From IMG/VR virus record IMGVR_UViG_3300029906_000003, positions 1 to 64,000 of that record: DNA of 64,000 nt, one strand, 5' to 3'. Below the pieces are notes generated by a model. It did no database searches. It was not told where the DNA came from and saw nothing but the letters and a program-made list of their open reading frames with translations. Positions within the stretch are counted from its first letter, which is position 1. Every line of letters starts with the position of its first letter. Below are positions 7,150 through 63,062 of this stretch, one piece after another. Source of the DNA: a virus (Duplodnaviria > Heunggongvirae > Uroviricota > Caudoviricetes). Position numbers and translations under genes: made by a program.

Positions 7150-7417
7150 ATGGTATCTCCATTAACTCCAAATTATTAATTAAGAAAACTATGTTAGTAC
7201 CGTTCATTCCATGAGATGATATATTTGCAATTTTACCTTTTTCCATCTTTGCGAAAAGGTTTTTCACGACTGGCCGCGAAACATCACAATCTATACAAAC
7301 CTAAGTAACCACTAAATCTGTGCTTTTTTTCTTTCCACCATCAAAGTATTTATTCAATATATCTTTATACAGGCGACTTTCTTTTTTTGTGAGTGTGGAC
7401 GCAAACATTGCGCGGAG

Positions 7418-7846
7418 CTAATTCTCATCTTTGTCGGGGTCTCGTCCATTGAATTTGTCAATGACCTGCCGCGCGAACTTATAAATAATATTTAACGATT
7501 CTGTTTGCGATGAACTAGTCCATTCTTCTTTTGCTTTAAGGAAAGAATCTTTATATAAAGCATTTTTTAGCGTTGAAGAACTATTATTAAACAATAAATC
7601 AGCTCTTTGAAATGATTCGTGAGTTATGGCATCATCTAATGAATGTAACCCAAAATACTCTCGTATATCAACTACACACACTGAGCCTCTTTCCTTGGTT
7701 GATTTAGGAACTAGACAACTATACAAATCTTTTTCTTTAGGAAGAATTATTCCAAAAATGAGGTTGTTCTAAATTGAAACAACGGCTAGTAACTAATTCC
7801 CATACCATCTGAATAACTCATAGTAACACTCTTTGAGCCCATCCAT
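7418..7846 (-). CDS. hypothetical protein with 2 N-terminal in-frame TAG codons. The track ORF 7418-7726 ends at a TAG; read-through would extend to about 7283.
   Basis: Manual extension upstream through TAGs gives MDGLKECYYELFRWYGN[TAG]LLAVVSI[TAG]NNLIF.. in frame with the track ORF. The sequence downstream of the terminal TAG is protein-like (MFASTLTKKESRLYKDILNKYFDGGKKK). Confidence 0.4.
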
Positions 7847-11200: not shown

Positions 11201-14200
11201 GAAATTGCTGCTGATACTCGTGATGTAGCTAGAGCATATCGTTATACCTTCAATGATGGTCTTGACGGAACTAATTCTAATGCGGGCTTCGGCTTCATTG
11301 ACTACACTCCTGCTATTGTTACAGAGAAAGATGGAAGTACGGATTTCTCACCTTTGTATATTGGAGAGCCAGAAAAAGAGTCTCAAGCTGCTACTAAGAA
11401 GTATGTCGATGATACTATTGCGGCTGTTAATGCTCCTGAATATACTTTAGCTAAGCAGACCGCAGCAGAAGATGGATATTTCGCCACTTATTATCTGACC
11501 AAAGATAGTGTGCAAGTTGGCGAAAAGATTAATATCCCTAAAGACTACCTAGTTAAAGAAGCAGAATTGTTAGAAGTTGCGGTAACTGATACTCCTTATA
11601 GCGGAGCTGTGATTGGTGACAAGTACATTGACTTTACAATTAATACACAAGCCTCTGATGAAGATGAGCAGCATATCTACTTGCCCGTTAAGGACTTGGT
11701 TGATGTCTATACTGGCGGCAATGGTATAAACATTGACGCATCTAATATTGTAAGTGTTTAGATTGATGCGGCAAATAGTAATGGACTAGCTCTGGGTAGC
11801 GCAGGACTCAAATTAAATCTTGCGACCACGAGCGCCGCAGGAGCTATGAGTGCGGCAGATAAGACTAAATTAGATACTGCAATAAGCGAAGAACAATTAA
11901 CTGCGGTTGAGAATGAAGTTGATACTCTTCAAACAGAAGTAAATAATATTAAGAGCGGGACAACTGACCTTGGTTATTTGAAAGCAACTGACCCAAGTTA
12001 CACAGGAATTATGACTGGTGTCGATGCTACATTCAGTGGAAATGTAGTTGTTCCCGCACCTGATACAGATAATGAAGCTGCTAACAAGAGTTATGTTGAT
12101 ACCGCTATAAGTGGAGCTAAGACAGAGCTTGAAGGAGATATAAGCACTATTCAACAAACTGTTACCGCTGTGCAAGGAACTGTATCTGGTTTTGAGAGTG
12201 AAATTGAAACTCTTACACAAGCCGTAAATAATATTACTAATGGAACAACAGAACTTCCTTATATTAAGGATTCTGGAGATTCTGTTAGTGGTAATTATAG
12301 CTTCAATGGCACTGTTACTGATATTGCATCTCGTACTTCTAATCTTCAGCTTGCCAATTTAAATACTGCTCCTGACCAATGGATAGATGCTGAATATGCT
12401 AATATCAAATACAATTCTACAAATAAGAGAGTAGACTTCAGCCTCATGACCAATACTGGTCTTACTACTAATGGAGTTAAAGTCAGTGGTGCAGAGCCTG
12501 AAGGAACTAATGACTTTACTACTAAAAATTATGTAGATACTAAAGTAACAGACCTTCAGAATAACAAGCTGAATAAAAATAATCCTGCCTTTACTGGCAC
12601 TATTACAGGAGCCAATGCTAGCTTCGCTGGGACATTAACTGGCAATGCAGCAACATTTTCTGGCGGGGTTACTGTACCTCTTGAACCAGGCGAAGAAGGA
12701 AGTGCTACTTCTAAAAAGTATGTTGACAACCAGATTGCTTCTATTGATGTCAGTGAACAAATTGAGCCATTAACTCAAAGAGTCACCGCTGTAGAAGGAG
12801 AAGTTGATACCCTTCAATCTAATGTTGGAACTATTGAAACCAATATCACTAATATTACTAATGGGACAACAGAGCTTCCTTATGTTAAAAAAAGTGGAGA
12901 CACAGTAACTGGCTTGCTTACTCTTGAGCAAGGGGTAAAGAATGTCAACACAGATGACCCCTCTTATGAAACTAATCTAAGTTCTAATGGATTTACTTTT
13001 AAACATGATTCAACAGTAAAAATGCTTAGCCTTCAGGGCAACAAATTAAAATTCTCAGACGCAACTGCTCAAACTTTAGTTCCAGTTGAAGTAGGAACGC
13101 CTATTGAAGATAAAGACGCAGCTACTAAGGGATATGTAGATGAAAATACTTCTCCTTTGTATACGAAGTCTAGCTTTGGTGTAAATATATTTGGATAGCC
13201 CCTAGGCGAAGAAAGCCTAGGAGTTTTCGTAGATAATGTTAAGACTGAAAAGCCTTTATATGGATTAACTCTGTATGGAGACTCGTCTCAAGAACATTAC
13301 GAAGGATATAACTTATTAAATCCTGATAATATTACTGAGAATGTAGGATATAGTGATACTGGTACATCAGAGACTAAACAAGGCGTCTTCAGTATAAAGT
13401 TTGTATTTGAAGAAGGTCAGGATTATGCGTTTGTTCTTGCATGGGATATCAGTAAGAATTTTGAAGAATACTTGTCTCAATTAAATATATTCTATTATAA
13501 TGCTGGACAATCTTTTGTTAGGAAGGAAACCGTCTATTTGGGAAGCCGATATGAGCAATTATTCAATAGTTATACCAACTCTGCTCATTCTGGATATGTA
13601 TATATTGAATTGACTCCTAAAGAGAGTTTTACCCTTACAAAAGAATTTATTACGAATAACTTTATGATTCTTTTAATTGAAAACCGAGCTTTCCCTTTTG
13701 AACCTTATACAGGTAAAAATCCAGCTCCTTCTCTTATATATCCAACTGATATAACAGGTATAGAAGAGAATCCTGTATTATTTGATTATGGACAATTATA
13801 TACGCAAAATAACAGTGGCTCTTCTTCAATTGATTTTGAAAATTTAGGCAAGATACATTTGCCTACTATAACTTCTCCTTTGTATGGAGGTTATCTGGGA
13901 AATATGAGCACTTATAGCGAATCGCCCAATATTATTATGAATTCAATTGCTAGAGCTTCATTTGATAGTGCTACAATATGTAATAATGGTTTAGAAGACT
14001 GTATTTATTATATAGACAAACGTGATTATAAAAAGGGAAAGGATATTAGAGTATTTAAGACTTTAACTATTAATCCTACAGAAGTAAGCGATTACATTAC
14101 TGATGGCGGGGCTTTAGGAAATGGTCATAAGTTTATTCTTAATGTAAATGATAATGTTAAGTTTGAAAATTATAGTTTGAATGACTTAAATGAAAAAGAA

Positions 14201-16123
14201 GAAAAGCTTTTAGTGGTTGTTCCCGTGAATGGTTTTGTTGACTACAATGAAATTGATAGATGGCATCAAAGAATCTGGTGTAACTATTTACAATCTGCTG
14301 ATTTTGAATTTGTTAGTAACCTTGAAGAAGAAAATCCAGAACCAACTACTTCTTATGATACAATTTATTATGATTATGATATTCAAAAGGGTGACGACCC
14401 TTCTAATATAACAATCTCTTTGTCAAATATTGCCATTTATACTACTAGAGCAACAACAGTGGAAGAATTTGCGGCCTTTATTACGACTCCAATGCAAATT
14501 GTATACGCTTTGGATGAACCTGTTGAAACAGATATTCCAGAAGATGAATTACTTAACTTAGATAATATCCATATTAAGAATAATAGCTTATATACTATAC
14601 TGTCAGAAGATATAAACGAAGAGAATCTAAATAGTAATACCGTTAAGATTATTGACTTCGATATTACTTATTATAGAGTTCCTTCTTCCAATGGTGACAT
14701 ATATCCAATTGAAAATCTTAATACTCTGGAGCTCTTTAGCTATAAGGCATTGGCTACTTCCAGTGATAATTCAATAGAAATAAATAATATTAAAGATAAG
14801 CTGACTATTGCAAACCGTGCTGTTTTTATTGGCGATTCAATTTCTCAGGGATATGATAATGATGATTATAGTTTCGTTGATATTTTTAAAAAGAATGACG
14901 ATTTCTCTGGTGTTACTAAATTAGCTGTTGGAGGAGCTACATTAGGTCCTTATCAGATAGTTTCTGAAGCTTCTGGTTATAGTTGTCTTGAACAAATTCA
15001 AGCAAATGAATCTGCGATTTCAGGTGCCAATTTCTGCTTCTTACAGTTCTGCATTAATGATGTAAAATGCTTGGTTTCTAAGAATATCCAGATTGGAACT
15101 CCTTCTGAGACTAGTGCAATAACTACTGTTTGTGGCTATTTGAAGAAGTGTATTGAATTACTGTATACTTATAATCCTACTATTTCTATTGTATTTATTA
15201 ATCTCGCAACTAATGAGCCTGTAATTGATATGATATGGGACAATGAAGTAAATAGCGATGCTGATAAGTATAAATTCTATCATAAAGTTTGGAATCTCAG
15301 CATAGCAGAAGTTCTTGAACAGTATAATATTCCTATGATTAATATCTTTGATTGGACAAGTATAAATGCAAATAACTTTAGCAATTATACAGTTCATACA
15401 GCAGATGGTACTCATTTGAATACAGCTGGAAATACTCTTGCTTATTATCGTATTAAGAATGCTCTTTGGAATGAATCTGAGAAGTCTTATCCAACTCAGC
15501 CAAAGAATTTAATCATTGATGCAACATTAGGCGGAAATATTGGAGTAGAGAATATTGAAAGAATTAAAAACGCTTTTGACAATAATATTCAAGTCTTCTT
15601 CAATCTGAAAGAAAACGAAGATAGTACTGAAGATTTAATTGTCCCTGTTAATTTTAGTTCTGATGTTGGATATGGTTCTCATTTCACATTGGCTCAGGAT
15701 AGCAAATTGTATTTGTATGAATTATAGACAAATACCGTTGGCCAAATTACTTATACATCTTATAATATAACTGATATGAAGGCTAATATTGACATTGCTT
15801 TAGAGGCTGGAACAGAGAAGCTTGAAACTCTTAAGTCTTATTCTGGTGCTACTTATACAATAGATTCTATGAAGCCAAATACTTTGTACAACTTACGCAA
15901 TGTTGACTTACCAACTATTACTGTTACAGCTTTTGAGGCACCAAGTAGTACAGAATATGTTTCTACATATCATATGATTTTCCAGAGTAATGTTACTCCT
16001 GTAATTCTTAATCTGCCAAGTAGTGTTATTTATCCAGAAGATTTTACAATAGAAACTAAGCATATCTATGAAATTAATATCATGGATAATCTGTTAAGCT
16101 ATCAGAGCTGGCCTATGGAATAA
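8297..16123 (+). CDS. giant tail-fiber-like protein (about 2600 aa) with about 13 NGTTELPY-type repeats and a C-terminal SGNH/GDSL esterase domain. It contains at least 12 in-frame TAG codons.
   Basis: Track ORFs 8297-8557, 9140-9385, 9563-9889, 9974-10174, 10277-11761, 11846-13198, 13472-15727 and 15776-16123 are all in one frame and separated only by TAG. Repeats NITNGTTELPY[IV]K, ATKKYVD and AIDVSEQIEPL recur. GDSL motif AVFIGDSISQGY. RBS AAAGAGGTGA. Single gene 8297-15727 versus fusion with 15776-16123 is uncertain. Confidence 0.7.
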
Positions 16124-20561: not shown

Positions 20562-20636
20562 TATAAAAACTAGAGAGCTTCAAAAATAAATCCAAGTCTT
20601 GTTATTTGATACCTCTTGCTGTAACTCTCTAATGGT

Positions 20637-20725
20637 GGTGCGCCCTGGGGGAATCGAACCCTCACAATGCGATAGCGTCTGAAGATTAGAAGTCAACTGT
20701 TTTATCCAATTAAACTAAGAGCGCT
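20637..20725 (-). tRNA. tRNA-like, type II architecture, anticodon arm does not pair (probable pseudo-tRNA)
   Basis: good acceptor GCGCTCT/AGGGCGC, D-arm GTTT..AAAC and T-arm, but no pairing around ..GTTGACTTCTAATCTTCAG.. Confidence 0.3.
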
Positions 20726-21028: not shown

Positions 21029-21664
21029 TTATAAATATCTCCATTCATATCCGTAAGCAGTTTTTCTTTTCCCTCTACAAGCAGCAGATATATGACTAAT
21101 GACTCCATTTATTTTTGAAAAAGTAATTCCTTCTTCGATTAAATATCTTGCAGCATCACTCATAGATAAGAATGTTCTTACGGGTAAATTATTTTTATAA
21201 GCAATAACTTTTTTAGAGCAGATTTCTTTCTGAAAAGAGTTATCTTTTATTCTAGGAACTCCTCTCGATTCTAAAATATTATATACTGAATCTACACAAA
21301 TATTCAAAGTATCTGCTACTTTTACACAGTTGTGTAAATTTTGATAAGTTTCAACAACTAAATCATAATCAATATATTTCTTTCCATCTCCTCCTAAAGT
21401 TGCATTATACCCGTTATGGTAAGAACCATAATATTGAATCCAATATCGCTCTCTCTCTTCTGAATTATCTGTTTCTTCAATCAGCTCAATATGGAAATGT
21501 TCTGGTCCATATTTATTCATTGCTGCATATAAAGGGCGCTTTTCGCATTTTTCTCTTTTATAGTCACAAAGATGCTCTTTAAATCTTGATTGAATACTCT
21601 ATTCTGTTTTTCCAATATAGATTTTCTAATTAATGTCGTTTGTAATTTTGTAGATGTATGCCAT
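21029..21664 (-). CDS. GIY-YIG homing endonuclease (I-TevI-like) with 2 in-frame TAG codons inside the GIY-YIG motif
   Basis: Track ORF 21029-21520 extended upstream gives MAYIYKITNDIN[TAG]KIYIGKTE[TAG]SIQSRFKEH. The ERERYWIQYYGS..NGYNATLGG region and the C-terminal ..AYGYEWRYL match I-TevI family. RBS AAGGAG. Confidence 0.75.
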
Positions 21665-21756
21665 ACTTAAATAGCTCCTTTCTATATGGTTCATTCTGTT
21701 AAAATAATAAAATATTTTTATCCAGGCGCACCACGTGGAGGAAAACCTTTGCGCCC

Positions 21757-21852
21757 TCGAGGCGGTGGGATTCGAACCCACATACTAGGGGTCAGAGCCC
21801 TAGGCTGTGAATGTTTTAGAGACATTTGCTGAACCAATTTAGCTACGCCTCG
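21757..21852 (-). tRNA. suppressor tRNA, anticodon CUA (reads UAG), long variable arm (type II), A73
   Basis: acceptor CGAGGCG/CGCCTCG, D-stem GCT/AGC, anticodon stem AATGT/ACATT with loop CTCTAAA (CUA at 34-36), variable arm hairpin CTAGGG-CTCTGAC-CCCTAG, T-arm GTGGG-TTCGAAT-CCCAC; CCA not encoded. Confidence 0.7.
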
Positions 21853-21991
21853 TTACGATACGAGAGGCAATTTACTTATGGTAATACAATCTTTTTTCCT
21901 TGTACTTTATCGCATATATTTGCTGTCTGTCTCTCTTTGTATTTATATTATATCATAATTTTAATTTTATGTCAATAGAATTTTTTAAATA

Positions 21992-23248: not shown

Positions 23249-23322
23249 TGGAGCACACGGTTGGAGTCGAACCAACTTTCACAGATTTGCAGCCTGCTAT
23301 CTAGCCGTCTGATTCCGTGCGC
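23249..23322 (-). tRNA. tRNA-Cys(GCA)
   Basis: anticodon stem GCAGG/TCTGT (two G-U pairs), loop CTGCAAA, T-loop TTCGACT, U73, CCA. Confidence 0.7.
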
Positions 23323-23869: not shown

Positions 23870-23938
23870 AAACTGGGACTCGAACCCAGACCCTTTTGAT
23901 TATCAGTCAAATGCTCTAACCAGTTGAGCTATTAAGCG
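23870..23938 (-). tRNA. tRNA-Ile(GAU)-like pseudogene (acceptor strands do not pair)
   Basis: D-arm GCTC-AACTGGTTA-GAGC, anticodon arm TTTGA-CTGATAA-TCAAA and T-arm CTGGG-TTCGAGT-CCCAG are good, but the 3' acceptor TTTTAAA does not pair with the 5' side. Confidence 0.3.
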
Positions 23939-25899: not shown

Positions 25900-26613
25900 A
25901 TATAGAAATTGAATACCTCACTTTTAACCACTCGCTAGACCTTCGTCTTACTCTCATCTATTCTCTGTTATATTCAGTCACGAGGCAATGAAGTCTGAGC
26001 TTCGGGTAGCGACCCCTAACTTCTTCACTGGCGGACCTAAATCCGCATTCTCTCTAGCCGCTTGATTACGACTAACTTTCACTCGTCATTCAGACCAATG
26101 TGTATAATACATATTCATCCAACGTCCAGATTTTGAGCTACTTGTACTGAACTCTCCCCTTATAGACAGATTTCTCTGCTTCAACTGGACATTATTTGCT
26201 TACTAGGATTACCTAGAGTTTGCTTAGTTTCCTAGGCTAAACCTTATCTAGGCTTATTCTCGTACTTGCGAGCGTCTATTGCGCAAACGGGGAGTCAAGT
26301 TCATACCTTTAACTAGGGAATAAATTACTAGCACCATAAACTCGCGGAAGTGGCCTTTGGCCGCTCATACTCTCACATCACTGAAAGAGTCATTTGGCTG
26401 TTACAAGGGTATCCTCTTGTCCAGTCCTACCCGCATATTTAAAGCTCATGTCTAGGCCAGATGACCTTCTGTCTTCACCTAGATAGCTAGTGGCTAAAAG
26501 TAAGGTATTCAATTCTCAAAGTTCTATTTATTTATCAAGACAGTATTTAAATCAGACTATCAATCTAACATTATCCAAGCTAAAATTTGCTGTAACTGTC
26601 TTTTGATGTATTT

Positions 26614-27823: not shown

Positions 27824-27916
27824 TGGAAGCGTAGAGGAGGCTCGAACTCCCAAACAGTATCACTACTGAGCTCCACTGTGAAAGAGTGGGGACTCTACCA
27901 ATTTGTCTACTACGCC
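27824..27916 (-). tRNA. tRNA-Glu(UUC)-like with an unusual 21-nt variable arm
   Basis: acceptor GGCGTAG/CTACGCT, D-stem GAC/GTC, anticodon stem CCACT/AGTGG, loop CTTTCAC, extra arm CAGT-AGTGAT-ACTG, T-arm GGGAG-TTCGAGC-CTCCT, CCA. Confidence 0.45.
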
Positions 27917-28757: not shown

Positions 28758-29585
28758 TTAAGCTATATAATCCTTTAAAACAGAAGCCCTGATTGGATTC
28801 CTCATCTTCTTGAGGGCGCACTTTTCTACTTGCCGCACTCGTTCTTTAGAAAGACCAATCTTTCTTGCAATTTCATCAAGAGTAAGAGGTTTAATATAAC
28901 CAATACCGAACCGCATCTTTAATATATCAGATTCTTTATCAGGAAGAGTACTCAATACTTTATTTATCTTCTAACACATTTCTTTTTCTTCATACTTCTC
29001 TTGAATTTCTGATTCTTTATCTTCAATAAAATCACCAAAAGAGTCTTCATTATCTTCCGAGATGGGAGAATCAAGAGAAATCATATCATTCATATAACTC
29101 TTAATTTTTTTCAGCTCTTCAAAAGTAATGCCCATTTCCGCGGCAACCTCTTCATCAGAGAACGAGTTATATTTTTGCATCATTCCCGTCGTAATCTTTT
29201 TATACTTATTAATTTTCTCAACAATATGACTAGGAACTCTGATATTTTCAGATTGCTGACTTAATGCTCGCGAAATTGCAGACTTAATCCAATAATAAGC
29301 ATATGTACTAAAACGATAACTACTGGACAAATCATATTTGTCAATAGCTGTCATTAAGCCAATATTACCTTCTTGGACCAAATCCAAAAAAGATAAACTT
29401 GCATTTTGCGAATAATATTTCTTAGCAATAAAAACAACAAGTCTAAGATTAGCCTCAATCAATTCTTCTCGTGCAGTCTTATTTCCTGACTGTGCTTTTT
29501 CAAGAAGAATCCTTTCGGTTTCCGTATCTAATATATTATCAGATAACTCATTTAAATAGATAGAACTAATATCAATATCTGCCAT
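28758..29585 (-). CDS. sigma-70 family sigma factor (regions 2-4, group 3/SigF-G-like) with 1 in-frame TAG between regions 3 and 4
   Basis: Track ORFs 28971-29585 (DLVQEGNIGLMTAIDKYD, region 2) and 28758-28955 (LTLDEIARKIGLSKERVRQVEKCALKKMR, region 4.2 HTH) share one frame and are separated by a single TAG: ..KEMC[TAG]KINKVLSTLPDKESD.. Confidence 0.75.
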
Positions 29586-43696: not shown

Positions 43697-44146
43697 ATGA
43701 AATCATATAGACAAAGAGCTGCAAGGATACAGCAAAAGAAAGAAGAATGGGAAAAAGAAAAAGTCCTATTACAAGAAGAATATAATCTTAAACAAGAGAA
43801 AAAGCTCTTTAAACAAAAGCAGAAAAAGAAATGGTTTGATAAACTAAGCAAAATAAAAAAGCCAAATACTTCTAAAATGTTAATTCTCTTTCTGTTTATT
43901 AACTGTACTCTTATTGAATTATTTTCTTGTGGAATTATCATTTACGCATTAACGTTATCAAAGACGACTATGTTAGCTGTTGATTTTTCACCCTTGACCG
44001 CATTGATTGGCGCTATTGTTACAGAAGTTATTGGATATGCGGTCTATTCTATTAAATCAATGAAAGAAAACACTAAGGGCGGCATTACTTATGAAACAGC
44101 AATATTGAATGGAGGTCAAGATAAAAACAATGAACAAAATGAATAA
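43697..44146 (+). CDS. membrane protein with an N-terminal basic region
   Basis: ORF track; two TM helices. Confidence 0.45.
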   Translation: MKSYRQRAARIQQKKEEWEKEKVLLQEEYNLKQEKKLFKQKQKKKWFDKLSKIKKPNTSKMLILFLFINCTLIELFSCGIIIYALTLSKTTMLAVDFSPLTALIGAIVTEVIGYAVYSIKSMKENTKGGITYETAILNGGQDKNNEQNE

Positions 44147-44451
44147 AATAACTGACTTTGAATTGAAGTTCTTTAACTTATTAAAAAATGAACTTAAAAC
44201 CCAATATAATATTGACGTTGCTATTGATTTACAAGAGGAAAATGGTATTACTGATATTTTTGGAGACAACATAATAAATGCAATATTGCAAGTTCTCTAT
44301 TAGCAAACTCAACCAGCAAAGAAAGTATTATATAATATACTCAAAGAATTTATTCCAAAAGAATTAAGATTTGAACAAATAGTTACTTTTGAAGAATTTA
44401 GTTCTTTGATTGACCATATTTTATAGATTCTAATTTAGAATTAAGGTGATA
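44130..44451 (+). CDS. hypothetical protein with 3 in-frame TAG codons
   Basis: track ORF 44109-44303 continues ..ILQVLY[TAG]QTQPAKKVLYNILKEF...HIL[TAG]ILI[TAG]N to TAA. Confidence 0.35.
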
Positions 44452-44454
44452 TAA

Positions 44455-45119
44455 TTGAGTGTACAAACATATTCATTAAGGACACAAGGAGATAATTTTT
44501 TAAGTAAGAATTTTAGAGTGCGGGAGTTTAAGTGCAATGATGGTTCGGACTCAATCTTAATTGACAGTGACTTAGTTAATGTTTTACAAAAAGTGCGTGA
44601 CCATTTTAATTAGCCCGTAACCATAAATAGTGCGTATAGAACACAATCATATAATCGAAAAGTGGGCGGAAGCAGCTCTAGTCAACATTGTAAGGGGACT
44701 GCCGCAGATATAGTTGTTAAAAATATTAATCCTTTGGCTGTTGCTTTATACATTGTTTCTTTACCCGAGTTTGCGGCAAAAGGTGGAGTTGGATATTATT
44801 CAAGAGCTAACTTAAAAAGCGGCTTTGTCCATGTAGACACGCGCAGCTATGTAAGTAGATGGATTAGTAAGGCTGGAACATCATATTTAAGCACTTCTAA
44901 AATTATGCCTACAATTAAACGCGGTCAGAGAGATGCCACTTCAAAAGGTAGAATTAGTTACGCTGTAACTGTATTACAACGTCACTTAAAGCTAACTGCT
45001 GATGGCATCTTTGGGACTAATACAGAAACAAAAGTAAAAGAATTTTAGAAACAAGCAGGTCTTACAGTTGATGGAATAGTAGGACAAAAAACTTGGGAAA
45101 AATTAGGAGGATTATAATT
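44455..45119 (+). CDS. endolysin: peptidase M15 (VanY/L-Ala-D-Glu peptidase type) plus two PG_binding_1 repeats, with 2 in-frame TAG codons
   Basis: FRVREFKC..DSDLVNVLQKVRDHFN[TAG]PVTINSAYR..SQHCKGTAADI; C-terminal LQRHLKLTADGIFGTNT..[TAG]..QAGLTVDGIVGQKTW; TTG start proposed. Confidence 0.65.
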
Positions 45120-52920: not shown

Positions 52921-53241
52921 ATGTTGAAAGAAAACGCTCGTATTGTATTTAAGTATTTGCTTGACCATGATGGAGAGAATTTTACTGCAAGTGATATTGC
53001 AGAAGAGACTGGCCTGAATATTAAGTCTGTTAATGGTATTTTGACCCAGGCATTTCAACGCCATCGTGACCCTGTTACCAGAGAAATCGTTCCCCTGATT
53101 GAACGGGTTCCCGCAGAGCTTGAGATGACTGATGAAGATGGTAATGTAACTCACAAGCCCATTAAGTTGATTGTTCTGACTGACGAAGGCCGGGAGTTCG
53201 ACCCTGACGAGACTGCACCCGTCGAAAATCCAGACGAGTAA
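52921..53241 (+). CDS. hypothetical acidic protein
   Basis: ORF track. Confidence 0.5.
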   Translation: MLKENARIVFKYLLDHDGENFTASDIAEETGLNIKSVNGILTQAFQRHRDPVTREIVPLIERVPAELEMTDEDGNVTHKPIKLIVLTDEGREFDPDETAPVENPDE

Positions 53242-53246
53242 AATAC

Positions 53247-53275
53247 ATGGGACTCATAATGAGTCCCTTTTTTTG
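53247..53275 (+). terminator. rho-independent terminator
   Basis: gggactcataatgagtccc followed by tttttttg. Confidence 0.65.
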
Positions 53276-53286
53276 TAGGAGAATAT

Positions 53287-54237
53287 ATGACCATTGTTAT
53301 AATAATATTATTAATGCTTGTTATAATTCTTCTATTTATAAATACTTCTATAAAAAAAATAGATGCAAGAGAAGCATAGCTAAAAGTAGAAGAATTATAG
53401 CATAAGAATACGATACTACAGTATACAATATAGCAATAGCAAGATGAAAAAGAAAAATATTCTAGCAAGATAAATAATCTAATTCAAGAGAAAGAAAAAC
53501 TTGATACTGAAATAAACCAGAAGAAAATATGCTTAGTTAATTATGAAAAAGATATTGAACTAGATTACTAGAATAAACAATAGCAAATGAAAAATGCGGC
53601 AAGTCTTTATTTTGACTCGCTAGAAAAATCATATAAAACAAAAGAAGAAGAATATGATAAGAAGTGCGCGGCCCTCGTCTCAGAAATGGCGGACATGCAA
53701 TCCTAGTATGCAGAGATTTAGTCCCAACTTGTATAGGGCGCCGCGGCCGCATTAAGAGAGCGAGAAAAGAAAGAGAAGATTAATTTCTACAAACTCAAAT
53801 TATCAGATTCTGATTCTATTGATATAAAAGAATTGTTTGAGCTAAGAAAGAGGTTCCGCAATCCTTCTGCATTAAGCAAATTGGTTTGGAGCGAATACTT
53901 CTTGAAGTAGACCTCTGAATTATGTAATAGAGTATTGGGGACTAATACGAAATGCGGAATTTATAAAATAACTAACTTAATTTCTAATCAGGCTTATATT
54001 GGTCAAAGTGTAGATATAGCTAGTCGTTTTAAGCAACACATTAAATGCGGTTTGGGCATAGACGCGCCTGCATCAAATAAACTATATAAATCCATGATCG
54101 AAGATGGTGTTTGGAATTTTTCTTTTGAATTATTAGAAGAATGCCCTAAAGATAAATTAAATGAAAGAGAATCTTTCTGGATAGATTTATATTAGACTAA
54201 TAAAGTAGGATTAAATAGTACGAAAGGAAATGGCTAA
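53287..54237 (+). CDS. coiled-coil protein with a C-terminal GIY-YIG nuclease domain; 13 in-frame TAG codons
   Basis: One frame runs from ATG 53287 (RBS AGGAG) into track ORF 53935-54195 (GIYKITNLISNQAYIGQS..R..H..ERESFWI). Translation with TAG as X gives a Q/E/K-rich coiled coil. Confidence 0.6.
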
Positions 54238-54905
54238 TGGGACAAATTATTTTACAACCAGAAACTACAAAGAATGTATTTGAGCTAATGGGGCGGGCCG
54301 CGGGTTACTGTTATGGTTCAGACATTAGCAATGTTGAGAAGAATGTCAAGCGAGGCCGCGAGTGTTTTAAGAATAAGCACGACAGAACATTAGAATATCC
54401 TCAAATTTATGTAGTCTTTAAAGACTATTCTGCAAGAGTCATGAGAGAATTGTATACGCATATTGGCGGCGCACCTACAAGATTGCAGTCAAGTACGCGC
54501 TATATTAATTATGGAAATTTCAATTATGTAACGCCTAAAGCAATAGAGAAAGATAAAGATTTAAAAGACGAGTATGATAGGGCGATGAATAACATTGTTC
54601 TTAGTTATTGTGAGCTATTGTCTAAAGGGGTTAGCAAAGAAGATTTAGGTAATTTACTGCCATTAGGAATGTGTACTACAGTCTTTTTCCGTACTAATGC
54701 GCGCCAAGTGATTGATATGGCTCATACTCGTTTGTGCACGCGTGCGCTCCCTGAGTTTCAAGGACTCATGCATGATTTCAAAAGTGCGCTTGCCGCATAC
54801 TCACCAGACTGGGAAGAGATAGTTAATATTACTTTTCGTCCAAAATGTGAAATTCTTGGATACTGCCCAGAGAAAAATAGCTGCGGACGAATGCCGAAAA
54901 AGTGA
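54237..54905 (+). CDS. ThyX-family (flavin-dependent thymidylate synthase-like) protein with a divergent active-site motif
   Basis: GRAAGYCYGS, KHDRTLEY (compare GHESVLEH), SSTRY (SxRY), LPLGMCTTVFFRTNARQ; the canonical RHR motif reads THI here. Confidence 0.55.
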   Translation: MGQIILQPETTKNVFELMGRAAGYCYGSDISNVEKNVKRGRECFKNKHDRTLEYPQIYVVFKDYSARVMRELYTHIGGAPTRLQSSTRYINYGNFNYVTPKAIEKDKDLKDEYDRAMNNIVLSYCELLSKGVSKEDLGNLLPLGMCTTVFFRTNARQVIDMAHTRLCTRALPEFQGLMHDFKSALAAYSPDWEEIVNITFRPKCEILGYCPEKNSCGRMPKK

Positions 54906-55980: not shown

Positions 55981-56334
55981 ATGGCAATAGATTTATTGGC
56001 AATTTAGCCTCACAAGGTTAGTCGTGATTTGTCGGGGTACGCAGTCTATGTGTACGGACCAGCTAAAGTCGGCAAGACGACATTTGCGTCCCAGTTCCCG
56101 AATACACTCCTTCTCGCGTGTGAAAAAGGTTATAGCGCAATCCCCGGTATCTATCCCGTGGATATTACCTCATGGCGCGAGATTCGTGATGTCATAAGAG
56201 AGTTGAAAAAACCAGCAGTTAAAGAAAAGTTTCATACGATTGCTATTGATACAGTAGACCTTGCTGGAATGATGTGTGAAAAATATGTTTGCGCTTAGAA
56301 TGGCGTAGATAAGATTACCGAATTGCCTTACGGT
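55981..56334 (+). CDS. Sak4-like/AAA_24 recombination ATPase, exon 1 (1 in-frame TAG at codon 9)
   Basis: MAIDLLAI[TAG]PHKVSRDLSGYAVYVYGPAKVGKTT..IAIDTVD..ITELPYG; splice site inferred. Confidence 0.55.
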
Positions 56335-57430
56335 CTAAACTTGGCCGCCTAAGATAGAAATATTTTAGTGAAAACAGAGTAAAAACTGGAAGGCTGAAAT
56401 GCTAATCAGAGCGGAAGTTGGATTTTAAAAGGTCTAACACGCGCAACGCATAGGACTATTAAACAATAAAAGGGAGGTTTGGCCTGAATGGCGAAACGGA
56501 GAGAATTTTCTTTAGAAGAGATAGAAGATATATGTAATTCTTATAAATTAGGAGTTCCAAGACAACAATTAAGTTTAAAATATCATTGTACAGATAAAGT
56601 CATAGTTAGGATATTAGAAGAAAATAATATAAAAATTAGAAGAGTAAAGAATCCAGGAAAACATCCAAAAAGATATAATGTTAATGAAGAATATTTTAAT
56701 ATAAATAATCAAAGCAATAATAGTGCTTATATATTAGGTATATTAGCATCTGATGGATGTGTAGCAAAAAATCAAAATCAAATTTATATAGAGTTACAAA
56801 GATGTGATAAAGAGCTTTTAGAGAAGATAAATAAAGAAATAGAAAACGAACGGCCAATAAAAGATTACCATAATAACTCAAAAAATTATGATAATAGTAA
56901 ATTATATTTCTTCTCTAAACAAATAAAAGATGATTTATCTTTATATAATATAATTCCTAACAAGACTGCTTATAATAATGACTTTTTACATAATATTGAC
57001 CCCAGATATTATATAGACTTTATTAGAGGCTTATTTGATGGAGATGGAGCTATTAAATGGACAGGAGGTTCTATTCAATGGCAAATTGATTCCACTTCAT
57101 TAAAAACTCTTAATCATATTCAAGAAATATTAAAAGAAATAGGAATAGAAACAAAAATAGTTGGCAAGTCAGAAAAACAAATAATCCATTATAATGTTTA
57201 TAGAATATACTGCTATAACTATGAAAACTGTTATAAACTTTATCAATTATTTTATTCTAAAGAAAATGTCATTTGTTTAAACAGGAAAAAAGAACATTTT
57301 AAAGAACTTTTATTGAAATATAAGTCCCACGAGACTCTGGGCCTGTAAAAAGGCTAAAAGATATGCTGAACTTATACGAATAAGTAAGTATAAGAACTAG
57401 AGGATAAAAAGCCTCTAGGATAACATAATG
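56335..57430 (+). mobile_element. putative group I intron (about 1.1 kb) carrying a LAGLIDADG homing endonuclease ORF
   Basis: separates the two halves of the AAA_24 gene; 5' exon ends in U, intron ends in G; P9-like hairpin CTAGAGG..CCTCTAG near the 3' end. Confidence 0.5.
56488..57348 (+). CDS. LAGLIDADG homing endonuclease (double-motif)
   Basis: YILGILASDGCV and FIRGLFDGDGAI; own RBS AAGGGAGG. Confidence 0.8.
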   Translation: MAKRREFSLEEIEDICNSYKLGVPRQQLSLKYHCTDKVIVRILEENNIKIRRVKNPGKHPKRYNVNEEYFNINNQSNNSAYILGILASDGCVAKNQNQIYIELQRCDKELLEKINKEIENERPIKDYHNNSKNYDNSKLYFFSKQIKDDLSLYNIIPNKTAYNNDFLHNIDPRYYIDFIRGLFDGDGAIKWTGGSIQWQIDSTSLKTLNHIQEILKEIGIETKIVGKSEKQIIHYNVYRIYCYNYENCYKLYQLFYSKENVICLNRKKEHFKELLLKYKSHETLGL

Positions 57431-58075
57431 CAAGGTTGGAATCTAATGAAGCGTGAGTTTGAAGATGTGTGCAGAAACATAACGCAATCTGGATACGCAT
57501 TGATTTTCATCTCACACGATAAAGACCGCACTATAAAAGATGACAAAGGGCAAGAGATAATCCAAATCTTCCCTTCCTGCCCGTCTAGTTTTAATGATAT
57601 TGCAAAAAATGCAGCAGATATATATGGATATGCTCAAAAGTATAAAGATGAATCTGGTAAACCTAAAGTTCGTTTGGTATTACGTTCAGCGGATGGAAAT
57701 ATTGACACAGGGAGTCGTTTCAAGTACATTCGCCCTAGTATTGAATTTACTTATACAGCTCTTGTCGAAGCTGTAAATGAAGCAATAGACAAAGAAGCTG
57801 CGGAAACTGATAACAAGTTTATTACGAATGAGAGAGAAACCTTCAAAGAAGAAGAAAAGCTAGATTATAATACTTTAATTCAGCAGTTCAATGAAGAAGT
57901 ATCTCTCCTCATGGAGAAGAATAAGAGTTATTATGCTCCATATATTACAACTATTGTGAATAAGTATCTTGGAAAGAATAAAAAGGTCTCTGACTCAACC
58001 CCTGAACAAGTTGACTTAATTAAACTCATTGTTGACGAAATCAATGATGAATTAGTTAGCAAGATGAACTTATAA
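57431..58075 (+). CDS. Sak4-like/AAA_24 ATPase, exon 2
   Basis: QGWNLMKREF..GYALIFISHDKD (Walker B region) continues the frame from exon 1. Confidence 0.55.
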   Translation, partial: QGWNLMKREFEDVCRNITQSGYALIFISHDKDRTIKDDKGQEIIQIFPSCPSSFNDIAKNAADIYGYAQKYKDESGKPKVRLVLRSADGNIDTGSRFKYIRPSIEFTYTALVEAVNEAIDKEAAETDNKFITNERETFKEEEKLDYNTLIQQFNEEVSLLMEKNKSYYAPYITTIVNKYLGKNKKVSDSTPEQVDLIKLIVDEINDELVSKMNL

Positions 58076-61298: not shown

Positions 61299-63062
61299 AT
61301 GGGTTTTAACTTTAAACTAATTAATCCTAGAAATGAATTATATACAATAGAAGAATAGATATTAACGAATCGTGGAATCCCTTATGAATTAGTTAGCTCT
61401 TATTTGGATAGAAATAACTTTGATGACATTGCTGAACCAGAAACTTTAGGAGAAGAATTGTTGGAGAAGGCGGCTAAAGCAATAGGAGAATGTATTGAAC
61501 GCGGCGGCCGCACCCTTGTCATAGTGGATTGCGATGTTGATGGGTATACCTCTAGTGCTTTACTTGTCAATTATTTAAATCGTATTGCCCCCACATGGGC
61601 TAAGGACAATCTCTTTTATTATCATCATACCTCTAAACAACATGGTCTGGGAGATTGTATAGATGAAGCGTTGAAATATGATTTAGTTATTTGTCCAGAT
61701 AGTGCATCTTCTGATGTAAATGAGCATAAGAGATTATATGATGCAGGAATACCTTTAATCGTATTAGACCACCACTTGACAGACATCGGAGAAAATACTT
61801 TAAACTATCCTTATGCTATTATTATAAATAGCTAGTGCAATGGATACAAAAATAAAGATTTATCTGGCGTAGGAGTTGTTTGGCAGTTCTGTAGATATTG
61901 TGATAAAAGAATGAACCGCAATTATGCAGATGATTATTTAGACTTGGCCGCGGTTGGACTAGTAGGAGATATGATGGATTTGAAGTCTATGGAGACGAAG
62001 GAACTAGTCCAATTAGGGCTTGGCCGCATCCATAATCCTTTTCTTGTTGGTATGTGTGAGAAGAACGCTTTCTCAATGAAGGGTGCAGTTAATCCATTTA
62101 CCGTAACATTTTATATTGTGCCTTTTGTTAATGCGATAACTAGAAGCGGAACTCAAGAGGAAAAAGAATTAATTTTTGATTCAATGCTTGAGTCAAAAGC
62201 TAATAATAAGATTCTTTCAACAAAAAGAGGTCATAAGTTAGGAGAACAAGAAACAATCCTTACGCAAGCTCTTAGGGTAGTTACAAATGTTAAAAAACGT
62301 CAAACTGATGCTCAAGATGCTAGTGTAGAATATCTAGAGCGCATTATCGCAGAGAAAGGACTGGCCGCGCACAAAACTTTAATTATCACTTTAGAAAATA
62401 ATAATAAGGTTGAACCAGAAGTTAGAGGTTTAATTGCTAATAAATTAATGGCTAAATATTGCAGGCCTTGTTGCATTTTAACGTTGCGGAATGACATCTA
62501 TGAAGGTAGTGCAAGAGGATATGAAAAAGGTAGTGTGAAAGATTTCAAAAATATATGCGAACAAACTGGCTTGATTGAATACGCGCAAGGTCATATGTCC
62601 GCCTTTGGTCTTAGTGTGGCTAAAGAAAATTTAGCTAAATTTATTGAGACATTAGATGATATTCTTGTAGATTTTACCCCTGATTCTTCTTACTTTGTTG
62701 ATTTTATTTATGAGAATAAAGATATTCCTGATAAAGACATTCTGACTATTGCTTCCATGAATGATTTGTGGGGGCAAGGAGTAGCAGAACCTTATATTGC
62801 AATTATTCATTTAAAATTGACTAAAGATATGATAACACTAATGTCGCCTGGCGCGCATCCTACACTAAAGTTTTCTGTCAATAAAATAGGTATTATTAAA
62901 TTTAAAGCTAGTCAAGAAGAATATGAACAGTTAATAGCTGATGGATACGTTGAACTTAATATTATTGGTAGATGCGCAAAAAATGAATGGCATGGAAGAA
63001 TTTCACCTCAAATACTTGTAACTGATTATGAAATAATTAGTAAATGTGATTATGATTTTTGA
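61299..63062 (+). CDS. recJ: RecJ-like DHH-family 5'-3' ssDNA exonuclease with 2 in-frame TAG codons
   Basis: One frame from ATG 61299 runs through the TAGs at about 61365 and 61836 and joins track ORFs 61404-61835 and 61911-63062. Motifs ILTNRGI, VIVDCDVDGYTS, VLDHHLTD. Confidence 0.7.

What the first reader, a model, noticed from the sequence alone, without database searches (positions are those of the whole stretch)
53287..54237. TAG hot-spot gene: 13 amber codons in 316 codons of a coiled-coil GIY-YIG protein, with heptad-like spacing
The first three TAGs are at codons 31, 38 and 45, exactly 7 apart, and further ones cluster in the Q-rich stretch ..TI*Q*QDEK.. . Such density makes expression strictly dependent on the suppressor tRNA, acting as a translational timer for this nuclease. 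Regular placement in the heptad means the inserted residue sits at a defined coiled-coil position. That bears on whether it is Gln (e/g position) or a hydrophobic residue (a/d).
Basis: seen in the sequence. Interest (0 to 1): 0.6.

Follow-up and report, generated by a model that had tools for sequence, protein, structure and literature searches.

The report
Amber-codon-rich membrane nuclease gene in phage
A conserved phage gene for a membrane-anchored DNA-cutting enzyme carries 11 in-frame "stop" codons that the phage's own suppressor tRNA reads as glutamine, so the enzyme can only be made once that tRNA is active; the same gene is the densest such hot-spot in more than 20 related phages, though the recoding itself is a known phenomenon.

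Summary
The ORF 53287-54237 (+) is real, but it has 11 in-frame TAGs, not 13. They fall at codons 31, 38, 49, 51, 95, 99, 140, 145, 150, 208 and 303. Codon 45 is CAG here and TAG only in close relatives, so the "7-7" spacing fails.

The gene is a conserved, syntenic core gene of a Phass-1-like family of ~130-140 kb gut phages. Its product has an N-terminal TM helix, a ~150-residue helix, a small helical domain and a C-terminal I-TevI-type GIY-YIG nuclease with its catalytic residues intact.

A CUA-anticodon suppressor tRNA lies in the window at 21757-21853 (-); ARAGORN mislabelled it Phe. Within-clade TAG<->CAA/CAG swaps, one at an invariant Gln, show that TAG means Gln. TAGs sit at surface heptad positions.

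The gene has 3.5 TAG per 100 codons against 0.17 in 51 other window genes. Its gyrase, ligase, ThyX, YorF and DnaB neighbours have none. In 26 recoded relatives the orthologue averages 3.0 against 0.18, and is the densest ORF in 23.

Suppressor dependence follows directly. A "timer" role is plausible but unproven: TAG ≈ CAA >> CAG also fits neutral drift. This is a new member of a known kind, with a SNIPE-like architecture and unknown function.

The parts
53287..54237 (+). Gene for a 316-aa TM + coiled-coil + GIY-YIG protein. It has 11 in-frame TAG codons and ends in TAA.
   Evidence: no TAA/TGA in frame; 0 of 20,000 shuffles; 2400 homologues, and P0001 is identical to the TAG->Q translation; conserved synteny.
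53287..53346 (+). Codons 1-20: N-terminal hydrophobic transmembrane helix (MTIVIIILLMLVIILLFINT), followed by KK. The predicted topology is N-out/C-in by the positive-inside rule (inference).
   Evidence: Sequence. The helix is conserved in orthologues (alignment A1) and is helical in the AF2 model.
53347..53790 (+). Codons 21-168: long alpha-helical, coiled-coil-like stalk that holds 9 of the 11 TAGs.
   Evidence: AF2 helix 2-168, pLDDT mostly above 80. Heptad analysis. Only coiled-coil proteins match this part.
53806..53937 (+). Codons 174-217: small, conserved helical domain (..DIKELFELRKRFRNPSALSKLVWSEYFLKQTSELCNRVLG). It contains TAG208. Its function is unknown; it may bind DNA (inference).
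   Evidence: AF2 helices 174-187 and 193-217. Many invariant columns. No Pfam family matches it.
53950..54207 (+). Codons 222-307: GIY-YIG catalytic domain of the I-TevI type. Y226, Y237, G239, R247, H251, E295 and N310 are invariant in the family and E293 is nearly invariant. It contains TAG303.
53377..53379 (+). First in-frame TAG (codon 31), directly after the TM helix. The other TAGs start at 53398, 53431, 53437, 53569, 53581, 53704, 53719, 53734, 53908 and 54193.
   Evidence: One search lists all eleven coordinates. In 25 recoded orthologues the first TAG has a median position of codon 31 and a maximum of 55.
53249..53274 (+). Intrinsic-terminator-like hairpin (GGGACTCATAATGAGTCCC followed by T7), placed between the upstream small ORF (stop at 53241) and this gene.
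   Evidence: 8-bp stem with 5 GC pairs; 5 terminator-like sites found in the region against 0.9 expected.
53277..53281 (+). Shine-Dalgarno AGGAG, 5 nt upstream of the ATG.
54237..54905 (+). Downstream thyX (Thy1 family). It has no TAG, and its start overlaps this gene's stop (TAATG).
   Evidence: (PF02511).
21757..21853 (-). Amber suppressor tRNA: anticodon loop CUCUAAA (CUA), a 25-nt long variable arm with apical loop CUCUGAC, discriminator A, and no encoded CCA. It is the only CUA-anticodon tRNA candidate in the window.
   Evidence: Rfam tRNA 56.7 bits with alignment. Sequence. Regex check. ARAGORN called it tRNA-Phe(aaa) through a mis-registered anticodon.

Best explanation
The ORF is a functional, conserved core gene of a family of ~130-140 kb gut phages related to Phass-1. 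It sits at a fixed place in the replication module: gyrB-gyrA-NAD ligase-two small ORFs-THIS GENE-thyX-yorF-AAA_24-yorH-dnaB.

Its product is a membrane-anchored nuclease. It has an N-terminal TM helix, a ~150-residue helical stalk, a small helical domain, and a C-terminal I-TevI-type GIY-YIG catalytic domain with its catalytic residues intact.

The phage uses TAG as a Gln codon, read by its own CUA suppressor tRNA at 21757-21853 (-). This gene uses TAG for about half of its glutamines, while its replication neighbours avoid TAG completely. In a standard-code host cytoplasm, release factor 1 would therefore stop translation at codon 31, leaving only the TM peptide. The nuclease domain is made only when suppression is efficient. 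With 11 TAGs the yield scales as (efficiency)^11: 0.05% at 50% efficiency, 31% at 90%, 90% at 99%. Production of a potentially dangerous nuclease is thus confined to the suppressor-active, presumably later, phase of infection.

Shown: the coding status, the conservation, TAG = Gln, the presence of the suppressor tRNA, and the gene-specific and lineage-recurrent TAG enrichment.

Inferred: the timing, that the gate is the selected function rather than a by-product, and what the nuclease does. My leading guess for the function is a SNIPE-like, membrane-tethered nuclease that acts on DNA at the membrane, for example to exclude superinfecting phages. This rests on architecture only.
For: Coding and conservation. 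There is no TAA/TGA in 316 codons, against 0 of 20,000 shuffles. There are 2400 homologues. Standard-code orthologues L001 and L004 have 0 TAG and the same architecture. Synteny is conserved. Invariant GIY-YIG residues are listed.

TAG = Gln. Among six clade members, every variable TAG site swaps with CAA/CAG (codons 45, 78, 98, 208, 240, 303), including the invariant Gln of the YIGQS motif. The per-site Q-minus-E log-odds at TAG columns is +0.46 for the window and +1.32 for L003. True Gln positions give +0.79±0.37 and true Glu positions give -1.08±0.30.

Suppressor tRNA.

Hot-spot. The window gene has 3.48 TAG per 100 codons against 0.17 elsewhere, P=1.4e-11. gyrB, gyrA, ligase, thyX, yorF and dnaB have 0 TAG. 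In 26 non-redundant recoded loci, including published Phass-1, the orthologue has 3.02 TAG per 100 codons against 0.18 for its neighbours. It is the densest ORF in 23 of 26. TAG positions turn over between lineages, while the count stays at 6-21. The first TAG is always early, at median codon 31. All 11 window TAGs are kept in relatives at 90-96% nucleotide identity.

Context. The endolysin (2 TAG), the tail-fibre-like ORF (11 TAG) and a sigma factor (1 TAG) are also recoded. This is the pattern described for code-15 phages (bioRxiv 10.1101/2021.08.26.457843).

Architecture parallel. SNIPE has a TM helix, a middle DNA-binding domain and a C-terminal GIY-YIG domain, and it is toxic when freed from the membrane (PMC13190303).
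Against: There are no expression, proteomic or timing data. When the suppressor tRNA is made is unknown.

The gene lies in the same strand block as, and is translationally coupled to, TAG-free thyX. Its mRNA is therefore probably present whenever thyX mRNA is.

Codon usage of TAG 11, CAA 9 and CAG 3 is what neutral AT-biased mutation would give if TAG were simply a free synonym. The high count therefore need not be adaptive.

TAGs are 3x denser in the weakly constrained coil than in the catalytic half, which also fits relaxed constraint.

The SNIPE parallel is weak. No DUF4041 Pfam hit appears in any of 34 family members, and no PD-lambda-1 family appears among the 25 PADLOC families listed. 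The GIY-YIG domain is of the I-TevI type.

The tRNA's identity elements (C1:G72, A73, long V-arm) are not those of a classical tRNA-Gln.
Confidence: 0.65

Rival explanations
1. Neutral by-product. The gene is translated only after the code switch and at a low level, so TAG is a cost-free Gln synonym. CAG->TAG transitions have then drifted to the AT-biased equilibrium. The TAG count carries no regulatory design beyond that of the first TAG.
For: TAG ≈ CAA >> CAG in this gene (11:9:3) and in orthologues (for example L039 at 21:21:3 and L020 at 13:20:1). New TAGs in close relatives arise at CAG codons (45, 78, 240). TAG positions are not conserved between lineages. TAGs concentrate in the weakly constrained coil.
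Against: This rival still requires the gene to belong to a different expression class from all its neighbours, which is the core of the gating idea. The tail-fibre-like gene, presumably late, uses TAG for only 14% of Gln codons against 48% here. The orthologue is the densest ORF in 23 of 26 lineages, and an early first TAG is universal. Both suggest more than drift.
Confidence: 0.3
2. Throttle rather than timer. Many imperfectly suppressed TAGs serve to keep the steady-state level of the nuclease very low at all times, not to delay it.
For: The yield falls multiplicatively with the number of TAGs (arithmetic). Nucleases are typically needed in few copies. The terminator-like hairpin directly upstream would also lower expression.
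Against: Nothing distinguishes a throttle from a timer in sequence data. Weak RBSs or weak promoters are the usual way to throttle a gene, yet the RBS here is a strong AGGAG.
Confidence: 0.15
3. Dual product. In the standard-code phase the ORF yields a ~30-residue TM micro-peptide with its own function. The full-length nuclease is a second, later product.
For: The first TAG falls directly after the TM helix in essentially all recoded orthologues (median codon 31, maximum 55).
Against: Standard-code orthologues make only the full-length protein. The TM sequence is poorly conserved. An early first TAG is also expected simply because the Q/E-rich coil begins there.
Confidence: 0.07
4. A free-standing GIY-YIG homing endonuclease: a mobile selfish gene brought in from a more heavily recoded phage.
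For: The catalytic domain matches I-TevI-type models best. The gene is AT-rich (31% GC). The window holds other homing-endonuclease genes (21029-21664 -, and the LAGLIDADG ORF at 56488-57348).
Against: The gene occupies the same syntenic slot in standard-code and recoded phages down to 35-45% identity. The domain order is reversed, with the catalytic domain C-terminal. There is a TM anchor and a coiled coil in place of a NUMOD/HTH DNA-binding tail.
Confidence: 0.04
5. A pseudogene, a non-coding region, or a region translated in another frame; or TAG decoded as a non-Gln residue in this phage.
For: Eleven stop codons under the standard code. The suppressor tRNA has a class-II-like long variable arm and A73, which resembles Leu/Tyr/Ser tRNAs more than tRNA-Gln. 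TAG150 aligns with an invariant Ala in standard-code orthologues.
Against: There is no TAA/TGA in frame, against 22 and 33 in the other frames. The catalytic residues are conserved. Within the clade, TAG swaps only with CAA/CAG. The column test is Gln-like and far from the Glu distribution. TAGs sit at surface heptad positions.
Confidence: 0.03

Closest known systems
Code-15 (TAG->Gln) stop-codon recoding in gut phages as a proposed regulator of late and lysis genes (Borges et al., bioRxiv 10.1101/2021.08.26.457843; validated by proteomics for crAss-like phages, PMC9523058)
   Same: The host presumably uses the standard code (inferred from the cited literature; no host sequence was examined here). 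The phage carries a CUA suppressor tRNA, and only a subset of genes carry in-frame TAG. The window's tail-fibre-like gene and its endolysin are recoded, while most replication genes are not. The proposed logic, that recoded genes wait for the suppressor, is the same.
   Different: Here the most TAG-dense gene is neither a structural nor a lysis gene. It is a nuclease embedded as a single-gene island inside an otherwise TAG-free replication module. That status recurs in 23 of 26 recoded relatives. The papers I read do not mention this gene family ('nuclease' occurs 0 times in the Borges preprint).
Phass-1 and the proposed Phassvirus / 'Caudoviricetes code 15 clade' (OQ749652.1; PMC10607447)
   Same: A ~136 kb gut phage with a large tRNA set, Sup-CTA tRNAs, and TAG in about 28% of its ORFs. 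It has an orthologue of this gene (326 aa, 8 TAG, 40.7% identity over the C-terminal half) flanked by TAG-free large ORFs. One of its Sup tRNAs also has a long variable arm.
   Different: The window is not a close relative: megablast finds no match. In the GenBank record the orthologue is annotated only as a 145-aa C-terminal 'hypothetical protein'. The paper's text has no occurrence of 'GIY' and one of 'endonuclease'.
SNIPE / PD-lambda-1, a bacterial membrane-bound GIY-YIG nuclease that cleaves phage DNA during injection (PMC13190303)
   Same: An elongated single polypeptide with an N-terminal TM anchor, a cytoplasmic middle region and a GIY-YIG nuclease near the C-terminus. For SNIPE, the nuclease is dangerous when not restrained.
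   Different: No DUF4041 hit appears in any of 34 family members, and no PD-lambda-1 family appears among the 25 PADLOC families listed. The catalytic domain is of the I-TevI type. The gene is phage-encoded and sits in a replication module. No functional data exist. This is an analogy of architecture, not demonstrated homology.
I-TevI and other GIY-YIG homing endonucleases
   Different: The catalytic domain is C-terminal rather than N-terminal. No DNA-binding tail is recognisable. A TM helix and coiled coil are present. The gene is syntenic and vertically inherited, not mobile.
T4 endonuclease II (DenA), a GIY-YIG nuclease that degrades host DNA
   Different: Identity is only 17%. EndoII is a small soluble early protein with no TM helix or coiled coil (established knowledge, not tested here).

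Membership tests
GIY-YIG nuclease superfamily | GIY...YIG motifs with a conserved Arg, His/Tyr, Glu and Asn, in an alpha/beta fold | tested here: met
I-TevI-type homing endonuclease | N-terminal catalytic domain joined by a linker to a C-terminal sequence-tolerant DNA-binding domain (zinc finger/NUMOD/HTH) | tested here: not met
   The catalytic domain is C-terminal (aa 222-307). The N-terminus is a TM helix plus a 150-residue helix. No DNA-binding Pfam domain appears in 34 members.
I-TevI-type homing endonuclease | Mobile: sporadic distribution, variable insertion sites, often intron- or intein-associated | tested here: not met
   The gene lies in the same slot between ligase and thyX/yorF in standard-code and recoded phages across the family.
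SNIPE (PD-lambda-1) defence nucleases | TM or other membrane-targeting N-terminal region | tested here: met
   Residues 2-19 are uniformly hydrophobic and are followed by KK. The region is conserved as hydrophobic in orthologues. There is no experimental localisation.
SNIPE (PD-lambda-1) defence nucleases | Central DUF4041 domain (DNA and tape-measure binding) | tested here: not met
   No DUF4041 hit at E<=0.1 in any of 34 members. No PD-lambda-1 family appears among the 25 PADLOC families listed. A structural comparison with a SNIPE model was not possible: no sequence was at hand and afdb50 was unavailable.
SNIPE (PD-lambda-1) defence nucleases | Cleaves incoming phage DNA at the injection site | not testable with these tools
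   This needs infection assays.
Code-15 recoded phage genes | In-frame TAG in a conserved ORF that is intact when TAG is read as sense | tested here: met
Code-15 recoded phage genes | Phage-encoded tRNA with a CUA anticodon | tested here: met
   Window 21757-21853 (-): Rfam tRNA at 56.7 bits, anticodon loop CUCUAAA.
Code-15 recoded phage genes | TAG corresponds to Gln, not another residue | tested here: met
   Six of six within-clade TAG polymorphisms exchange with CAA/CAG, including the invariant Gln of YIGQS. The column test is Gln-like. There is no proteomic confirmation.
Code-15 recoded phage genes | Expression confined to the late, suppressor-active phase | not testable with these tools
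   This needs a time-resolved transcriptome, translatome or proteome.
Theta (minimal HDV-like) ribozyme 3' of suppressor tRNAs (PMC10879173) | P1 with a G·U base pair at its base, P3/L3, P1.1, and a catalytic C as the first base of J4/2 | tested here: not met
   The tRNA lacks CCA and is followed by GGGCGCAAAGGTTTTCCTCCACGTGGTGCGCCTGGAT. By hand it can form P1 (GGGCGCA/UGCGCCU with G·U), P3 and P1.1. The J4/2 position is A and no C follows for 25 nt. Rfam reports no ribozyme there. This was a manual parse only.

The most novel reading that the evidence does not exclude
The TAG load of this gene is an evolved multi-codon lock, an ultrasensitive switch in which yield scales as efficiency^n. It keeps a phage-encoded, SNIPE-like membrane nuclease silent until the phage has switched the cell's genetic code.

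The lock has been rebuilt repeatedly in a phage family whose lineages reassigned TAG to different amino acids: Gln in this window, apparently Glu in one clade, and Tyr in one lineage. Charging of the Gln suppressors would be aided by a variable-arm hairpin that displays a Gln anticodon (CUG or UUG followed by A).
Probability: 0.2. Interest if true: 0.8.

Novelty: new member of a known kind. Interest (0 to 1): 0.5.

Why it matters
Stop-codon recoding in gut phages is thought to time late genes, but the evidence is correlative and centred on structural and lysis genes. This gene offers an unusually clean test case. It is a single, short, heavily recoded gene inside a standard-code replication operon. 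Natural TAG-free orthologues are available as controls, and dozens of independent replicates exist across lineages. Swapping TAG for CAA, or moving the gene into a standard-code relative, would test directly whether recoding gates a toxic activity.

The work also defines an uncharacterised, widespread family (about 2400 database homologues) of membrane-anchored phage nucleases. Their architecture echoes the bacterial SNIPE defence.

The comparative work also threw up two leads of wider interest. One is a clade where TAG behaves as Glu. The other is a conserved Gln-anticodon-like motif in the variable arm of phage amber suppressors.

Tried and rejected
- **Megablast to INPHARED phages.** A search with 12 kb around the gene found no match.
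- **ARAGORN alone.** It reported no suppressor because it mis-registered the anticodon of the 96-nt tRNA as AAA/Phe. Rfam alignment and manual reading corrected this.
- **DUF4041 / T5orf172 / PD-lambda-1 membership.** No DUF4041 hit appears for any of 34 family members, and neither T5orf172 nor PD-lambda-1 appears among the families listed. SNIPE homology is therefore not claimed.
- **Theta ribozyme after the suppressor tRNA.** The helices look plausible, but the catalytic C is absent and Rfam is silent. Rejected as an active theta ribozyme.
- **afdb50 fold search.** Unavailable. The BFVD and PDB searches matched the catalytic domain, coiled-coil proteins and two uncharacterised viral relatives.
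- **Literature search for Uzume/UzuA.** It returned nothing relevant. The PADLOC UzuA hits in 18 of 34 members remain uninterpreted.
- **Suppressor tRNAs near the orthologue in 26 recoded loci.** None was found except in Phass-1, so the suppressors of the Glu-like clade were not examined.
- **Regular heptad placement of TAGs.** Rejected.
- **Pseudogene, wrong frame and mobile-element readings.** Rejected.
Full report
**1. Observation**

The ORF at 53287-54237 (+) starts with ATG, is preceded by AGGAG, and ends with TAA. Translation gives 316 sense codons with 11 in-frame TAGs, at codons 31, 38, 49, 51, 95, 99, 140, 145, 150, 208 and 303. There is no in-frame TAA or TGA.

Close relatives at 90-96% nucleotide identity do have TAG at codon 45 and carry 12-14 TAGs. 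The TI*Q*Q cluster is real.

The ORF is not a chance feature. None of 20,000 shuffles lacks in-frame TAA/TGA, and the other two frames hold 22 and 33 such stops.

**2. What the gene encodes**

With TAG read as Gln, the protein is identical to a database protein, P0001. The search returned 2400 homologues with E <= 0.001.

The AF2 model (pLDDT 87.8) shows one long helix from residue 2 to 168. Its first ~20 residues are a uniformly hydrophobic TM segment followed by KK. A small helical domain follows (174-217), then a GIY-YIG domain (224-307).

The catalytic domain matches several models and structures:
- Pfam GIY-YIG.
- TIGR01453 'group I intron endonuclease', above its cutoff.

The GIY, YIG, Arg, His, Glu and Asn positions are invariant or nearly so across the family. 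The enzyme is therefore probably active.

Nothing else in the protein matches a described family. None of 34 members hits DUF4041, and no PD-lambda-1 family appears among the 25 PADLOC families listed.

**3. Genomic setting**

Gene calls on contigs carrying P0001 and its relatives show a fixed order: gyrB, gyrA, NAD-dependent ligase, two small ORFs, this gene, thyX (or another small gene), yorF, AAA_24, yorH, dnaB, an unknown ORF, a DHH/RecJ-like gene, and a helicase.

The same slot is occupied in phages down to about 35% identity. The gene is thus a vertically inherited core gene of the replication module, not a roaming homing endonuclease.

A terminator-like hairpin with a T7 run lies 12 nt upstream of the RBS. 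The stop codon overlaps the thyX start (TAATG).

The family includes the published code-15 phage Phass-1 (OQ749652.1). Its orthologue (326 aa, 8 TAG) is annotated only as a 145-aa C-terminal fragment.

**4. How TAG is read**

ARAGORN reported 23 tRNAs and no suppressor. Its 96-nt 'tRNA-Phe(aaa)' at 21757-21852 (-) is mis-registered. The Rfam alignment (56.7 bits) places CUCUAAA in the anticodon loop, giving anticodon CUA, with a 25-nt variable-arm insertion. It is the only CUA candidate in the window.

Three results point to Gln as the inserted residue:
- Among six members of the window's clade, every TAG site that varies swaps with CAA or CAG (codons 45, 78, 98, 208, 240, 303). Codon 240 is the invariant Gln of the YIGQS motif.
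- I ran a Codetta-like column test against 27 standard-code orthologues and calibrated it on true Gln positions (+0.79±0.37 per site) and true Glu positions (-1.08±0.30). It gives +0.46 for the window and +1.32 for its 69%-identical relative L003.
- By my own heptad scoring, 8 of the 9 TAGs in the helix fall at b, c, e, f or g positions. These are solvent-exposed and fit a polar residue.

One oddity remains. TAG150 is conserved in all six clade members, yet it aligns with an invariant Ala in standard-code orthologues.

**5. The hot-spot is real and recurrent**

In the window, this gene has 3.48 TAG per 100 codons against 0.17 for 51 other genes (P=1.4e-11). TAG supplies 48% of its Gln-type codons against 5.7% elsewhere.

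gyrB, gyrA, ligase, thyX, yorF and dnaB have no TAG at all. Other TAG-bearing genes in the window are:

| Gene | Coordinates | TAGs |
|---|---|---|
| Tail-fibre-like ORF with a GDSL esterase domain | 8297-16123 | 11 in 2608 codons |
| Endolysin (Peptidase_M15_3 + PG_binding_1) | 44455-45117 | 2 |
| Sigma-70-like factor | 28758-29585 (-) | 1 |
| RecJ-like gene | 61299-63062 | 2 |
| Two unknown ORFs | 7142-7846 (-); 44109-44444 | 4; 3 |

In IMG/VR relatives the orthologue is bimodal. Standard-code lineages have 0 TAG and recoded lineages have 6-21, with L039 reaching 21 of 318 codons.

Over 26 non-redundant recoded loci the orthologue has 3.02 TAG per 100 codons, against 0.18 for neighbouring ORFs (16.5-fold). 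It is the densest ORF in 23 of 26 loci.

TAG positions differ between lineages, but the first TAG is always early (median codon 31, maximum 55). The coil carries 4.7 TAG per 100 codons against 1.5 in the C-terminal half.

**6. Mechanism**

What follows directly is this. In a cell with active RF1 and no suppressor, translation ends at codon 31 and no nuclease domain is made. With suppression efficiency e, the yield is about e^11: 0.05% at e=0.5, 9% at 0.8, 31% at 0.9 and 90% at 0.99. The gene therefore belongs to a different translational class from the replication genes around it.

This matches, and sharpens, the model of Borges et al., who proposed that recoded genes wait for the code switch. 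The novelty is that the extreme case is a single nuclease gene inside a standard-code module.

What is not shown is that the gate, or the number of TAGs, is selected. Usage of TAG 11, CAA 9 and CAG 3 is what AT-biased mutation would produce if TAG were a free synonym, because CAG->TAG is allowed and CAA->TAA is not. Orthologues show the same TAG ≈ CAA >> CAG pattern.

Against pure drift, the tail-fibre-like gene (presumably late) uses TAG for only 14% of Gln codons. The hot-spot also recurs in nearly every recoded lineage.

I rate 'suppressor-gated expression of the nuclease' as well supported. I rate 'adaptive timer' as plausible, at roughly even odds against drift or a throttle.

**7. What the protein may do**

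The closest functional analogue I found is SNIPE (PD-lambda-1). It is a bacterial inner-membrane protein with a TM helix, a DUF4041 domain and a C-terminal GIY-YIG domain. It cleaves phage DNA during injection, and it becomes toxic by cutting the chromosome when its TM anchor is removed (PMC13190303).

The window protein shares the layout but not the DUF4041 domain, and its nuclease domain is of the I-TevI type. This is an analogy, not membership.

A phage-encoded version could exclude superinfecting phages, or act on DNA at the membrane late in infection. Either role would make untimely expression risky, for the phage's own incoming or replicating DNA as well. This step is inference only.

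**8. Novelty**

TAG->Gln recoding, phage suppressor tRNAs and preferential recoding of some genes are all known. This gene family, its membrane-anchored architecture and its status as a conserved TAG hot-spot are not mentioned in the papers I read. I file it as a new member of a known kind.

**9. Side observations**

(a) A related clade appears to read TAG as Glu. The loci are L013, L015, L017, L019, L020, L022, L031/L032 and L039, and probably also L014, L018, L021 and L036. Three lines of evidence agree:
- TAG columns in this gene score -0.6 to -1.1 per site, while the same genomes' CAA/CAG positions score +0.4 to +1.5.
- TAGs in their AAA_24 and YorF genes fall on conserved Glu columns. Lineages classed Gln-like fall on conserved Gln columns instead.
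- In relatives at least 55% identical, TAG pairs with Glu 125 times, Gln 51 times and Lys 40 times.

L084 has TAG at four conserved Tyr columns. I found no report of TAG = Glu in phages.

(b) The suppressor tRNA's variable arm is a hairpin with apical loop CUCUGAC. Of 33 distinct long-V-arm CUA tRNAs recovered from IMG/VR, 31 carry CUGA (24) or UUGA (7) at the V-arm apex, against 5.1 expected. These are the two Gln anticodons followed by A. This suggests an identity mimic, but it is untested, and relatedness among the tRNAs inflates the statistic.

(c) Further items are listed under 'noticed in passing'.

Noticed in passing
window 21757-21853 (-); L089 7920-8007; loci L094-L213: The amber suppressor tRNA has a 25-nt variable-arm hairpin whose apical loop is CUCUGAC. 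Of 33 distinct long-V-arm CUA tRNAs in IMG/VR, 31 show CUGA (24) or UUGA (7) at the V-arm apex, against 5.1 expected from shuffles. These are the two Gln anticodons followed by A37. This may be an anticodon mimic that supports Gln charging. No description turned up in the library.
   Followed up: partly
loci L013, L015, L017, L019, L020, L022, L031/L032, L039 (IMG/VR relatives); L084: In one clade of relatives, in-frame TAG behaves as Glu rather than Gln. Three analyses support this: the column test in the GIY-YIG gene, conserved Glu columns in AAA_24/YorF, and Glu as the main partner in close relatives. In L084, TAG sits on four conserved Tyr columns. The phage family may therefore hold three different meanings for TAG.
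   Followed up: partly
window 25918-26506 (-): A full-length ROOL RNA (Rfam RF03087, 303 bits, E=9e-69) lies inside the tRNA array.
   Followed up: no
window 21029-21664 (-): A second GIY-YIG gene of classical homing-endonuclease layout (N-terminal catalytic domain, 211 aa) starts about 90 nt downstream of the suppressor tRNA. It carries 2 in-frame TAGs, at codons 13 and 22.
   Followed up: partly
window 21721-21756 (-): Directly 3' of the suppressor tRNA, which lacks CCA, lies GGGCGCAAAGGTTTTCCTCCACGTGGTGCGCCTGGA. By hand this can be drawn with HDV-like P1 (G·U), P3 and P1.1 helices. It has A where the catalytic C should be, so it is not an active theta ribozyme by the published criterion.
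   Followed up: partly
window 55981-58075 (+): The AAA_24 (Sak4-like) gene is split into two parts (55981-56352 and 57428-58075) by a LAGLIDADG endonuclease ORF (56488-57348). This suggests an intron or a homing-endonuclease insertion. Rfam found no group I intron at the gathering threshold.
   Followed up: no
window 20636-20724 (-), 27824-27916 (-), 23252-23322 (-), 23871-23933 (-): tRNA-Arg(UCU) at 89 nt and tRNA-Glu(UUC) at 93 nt also carry long insertions in the variable region, which is unusual for class I tRNAs. Rfam found two tRNA-like genes that ARAGORN missed: a Cys GCA tRNA and a partial Ile GAU-like one.
   Followed up: no
window 28758-29585 (-) and 44455-45117 (+): A sigma-70-family factor (regions 2, 3 and 4) carries one in-frame TAG between regions 3 and 4. 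The endolysin (Peptidase_M15_3 + PG_binding_1) carries two. Full-length sigma and lysin therefore also need the suppressor.
   Followed up: partly
L089 (OQ749652.1 62995-63985): In the GenBank record of Phass-1, the orthologue (326 aa with 8 TAG) is annotated only as a 145-aa C-terminal 'hypothetical protein'. Two Sup-CTA tRNAs, 72 nt and 88 nt, lie about 400 nt downstream.
   Followed up: yes
alignment A2 (family members): PADLOC UzuA (Uzume) models hit 18 of 34 family members (best E=3.8e-8), though not the window protein itself. It was not determined which region matches.
   Followed up: no
window 53734-53736 (codon 150): TAG150 is conserved in all six clade members examined, yet it aligns with an Ala that is invariant in 27 standard-code orthologues. 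This does not fit a simple Gln-for-Gln history.
   Followed up: no
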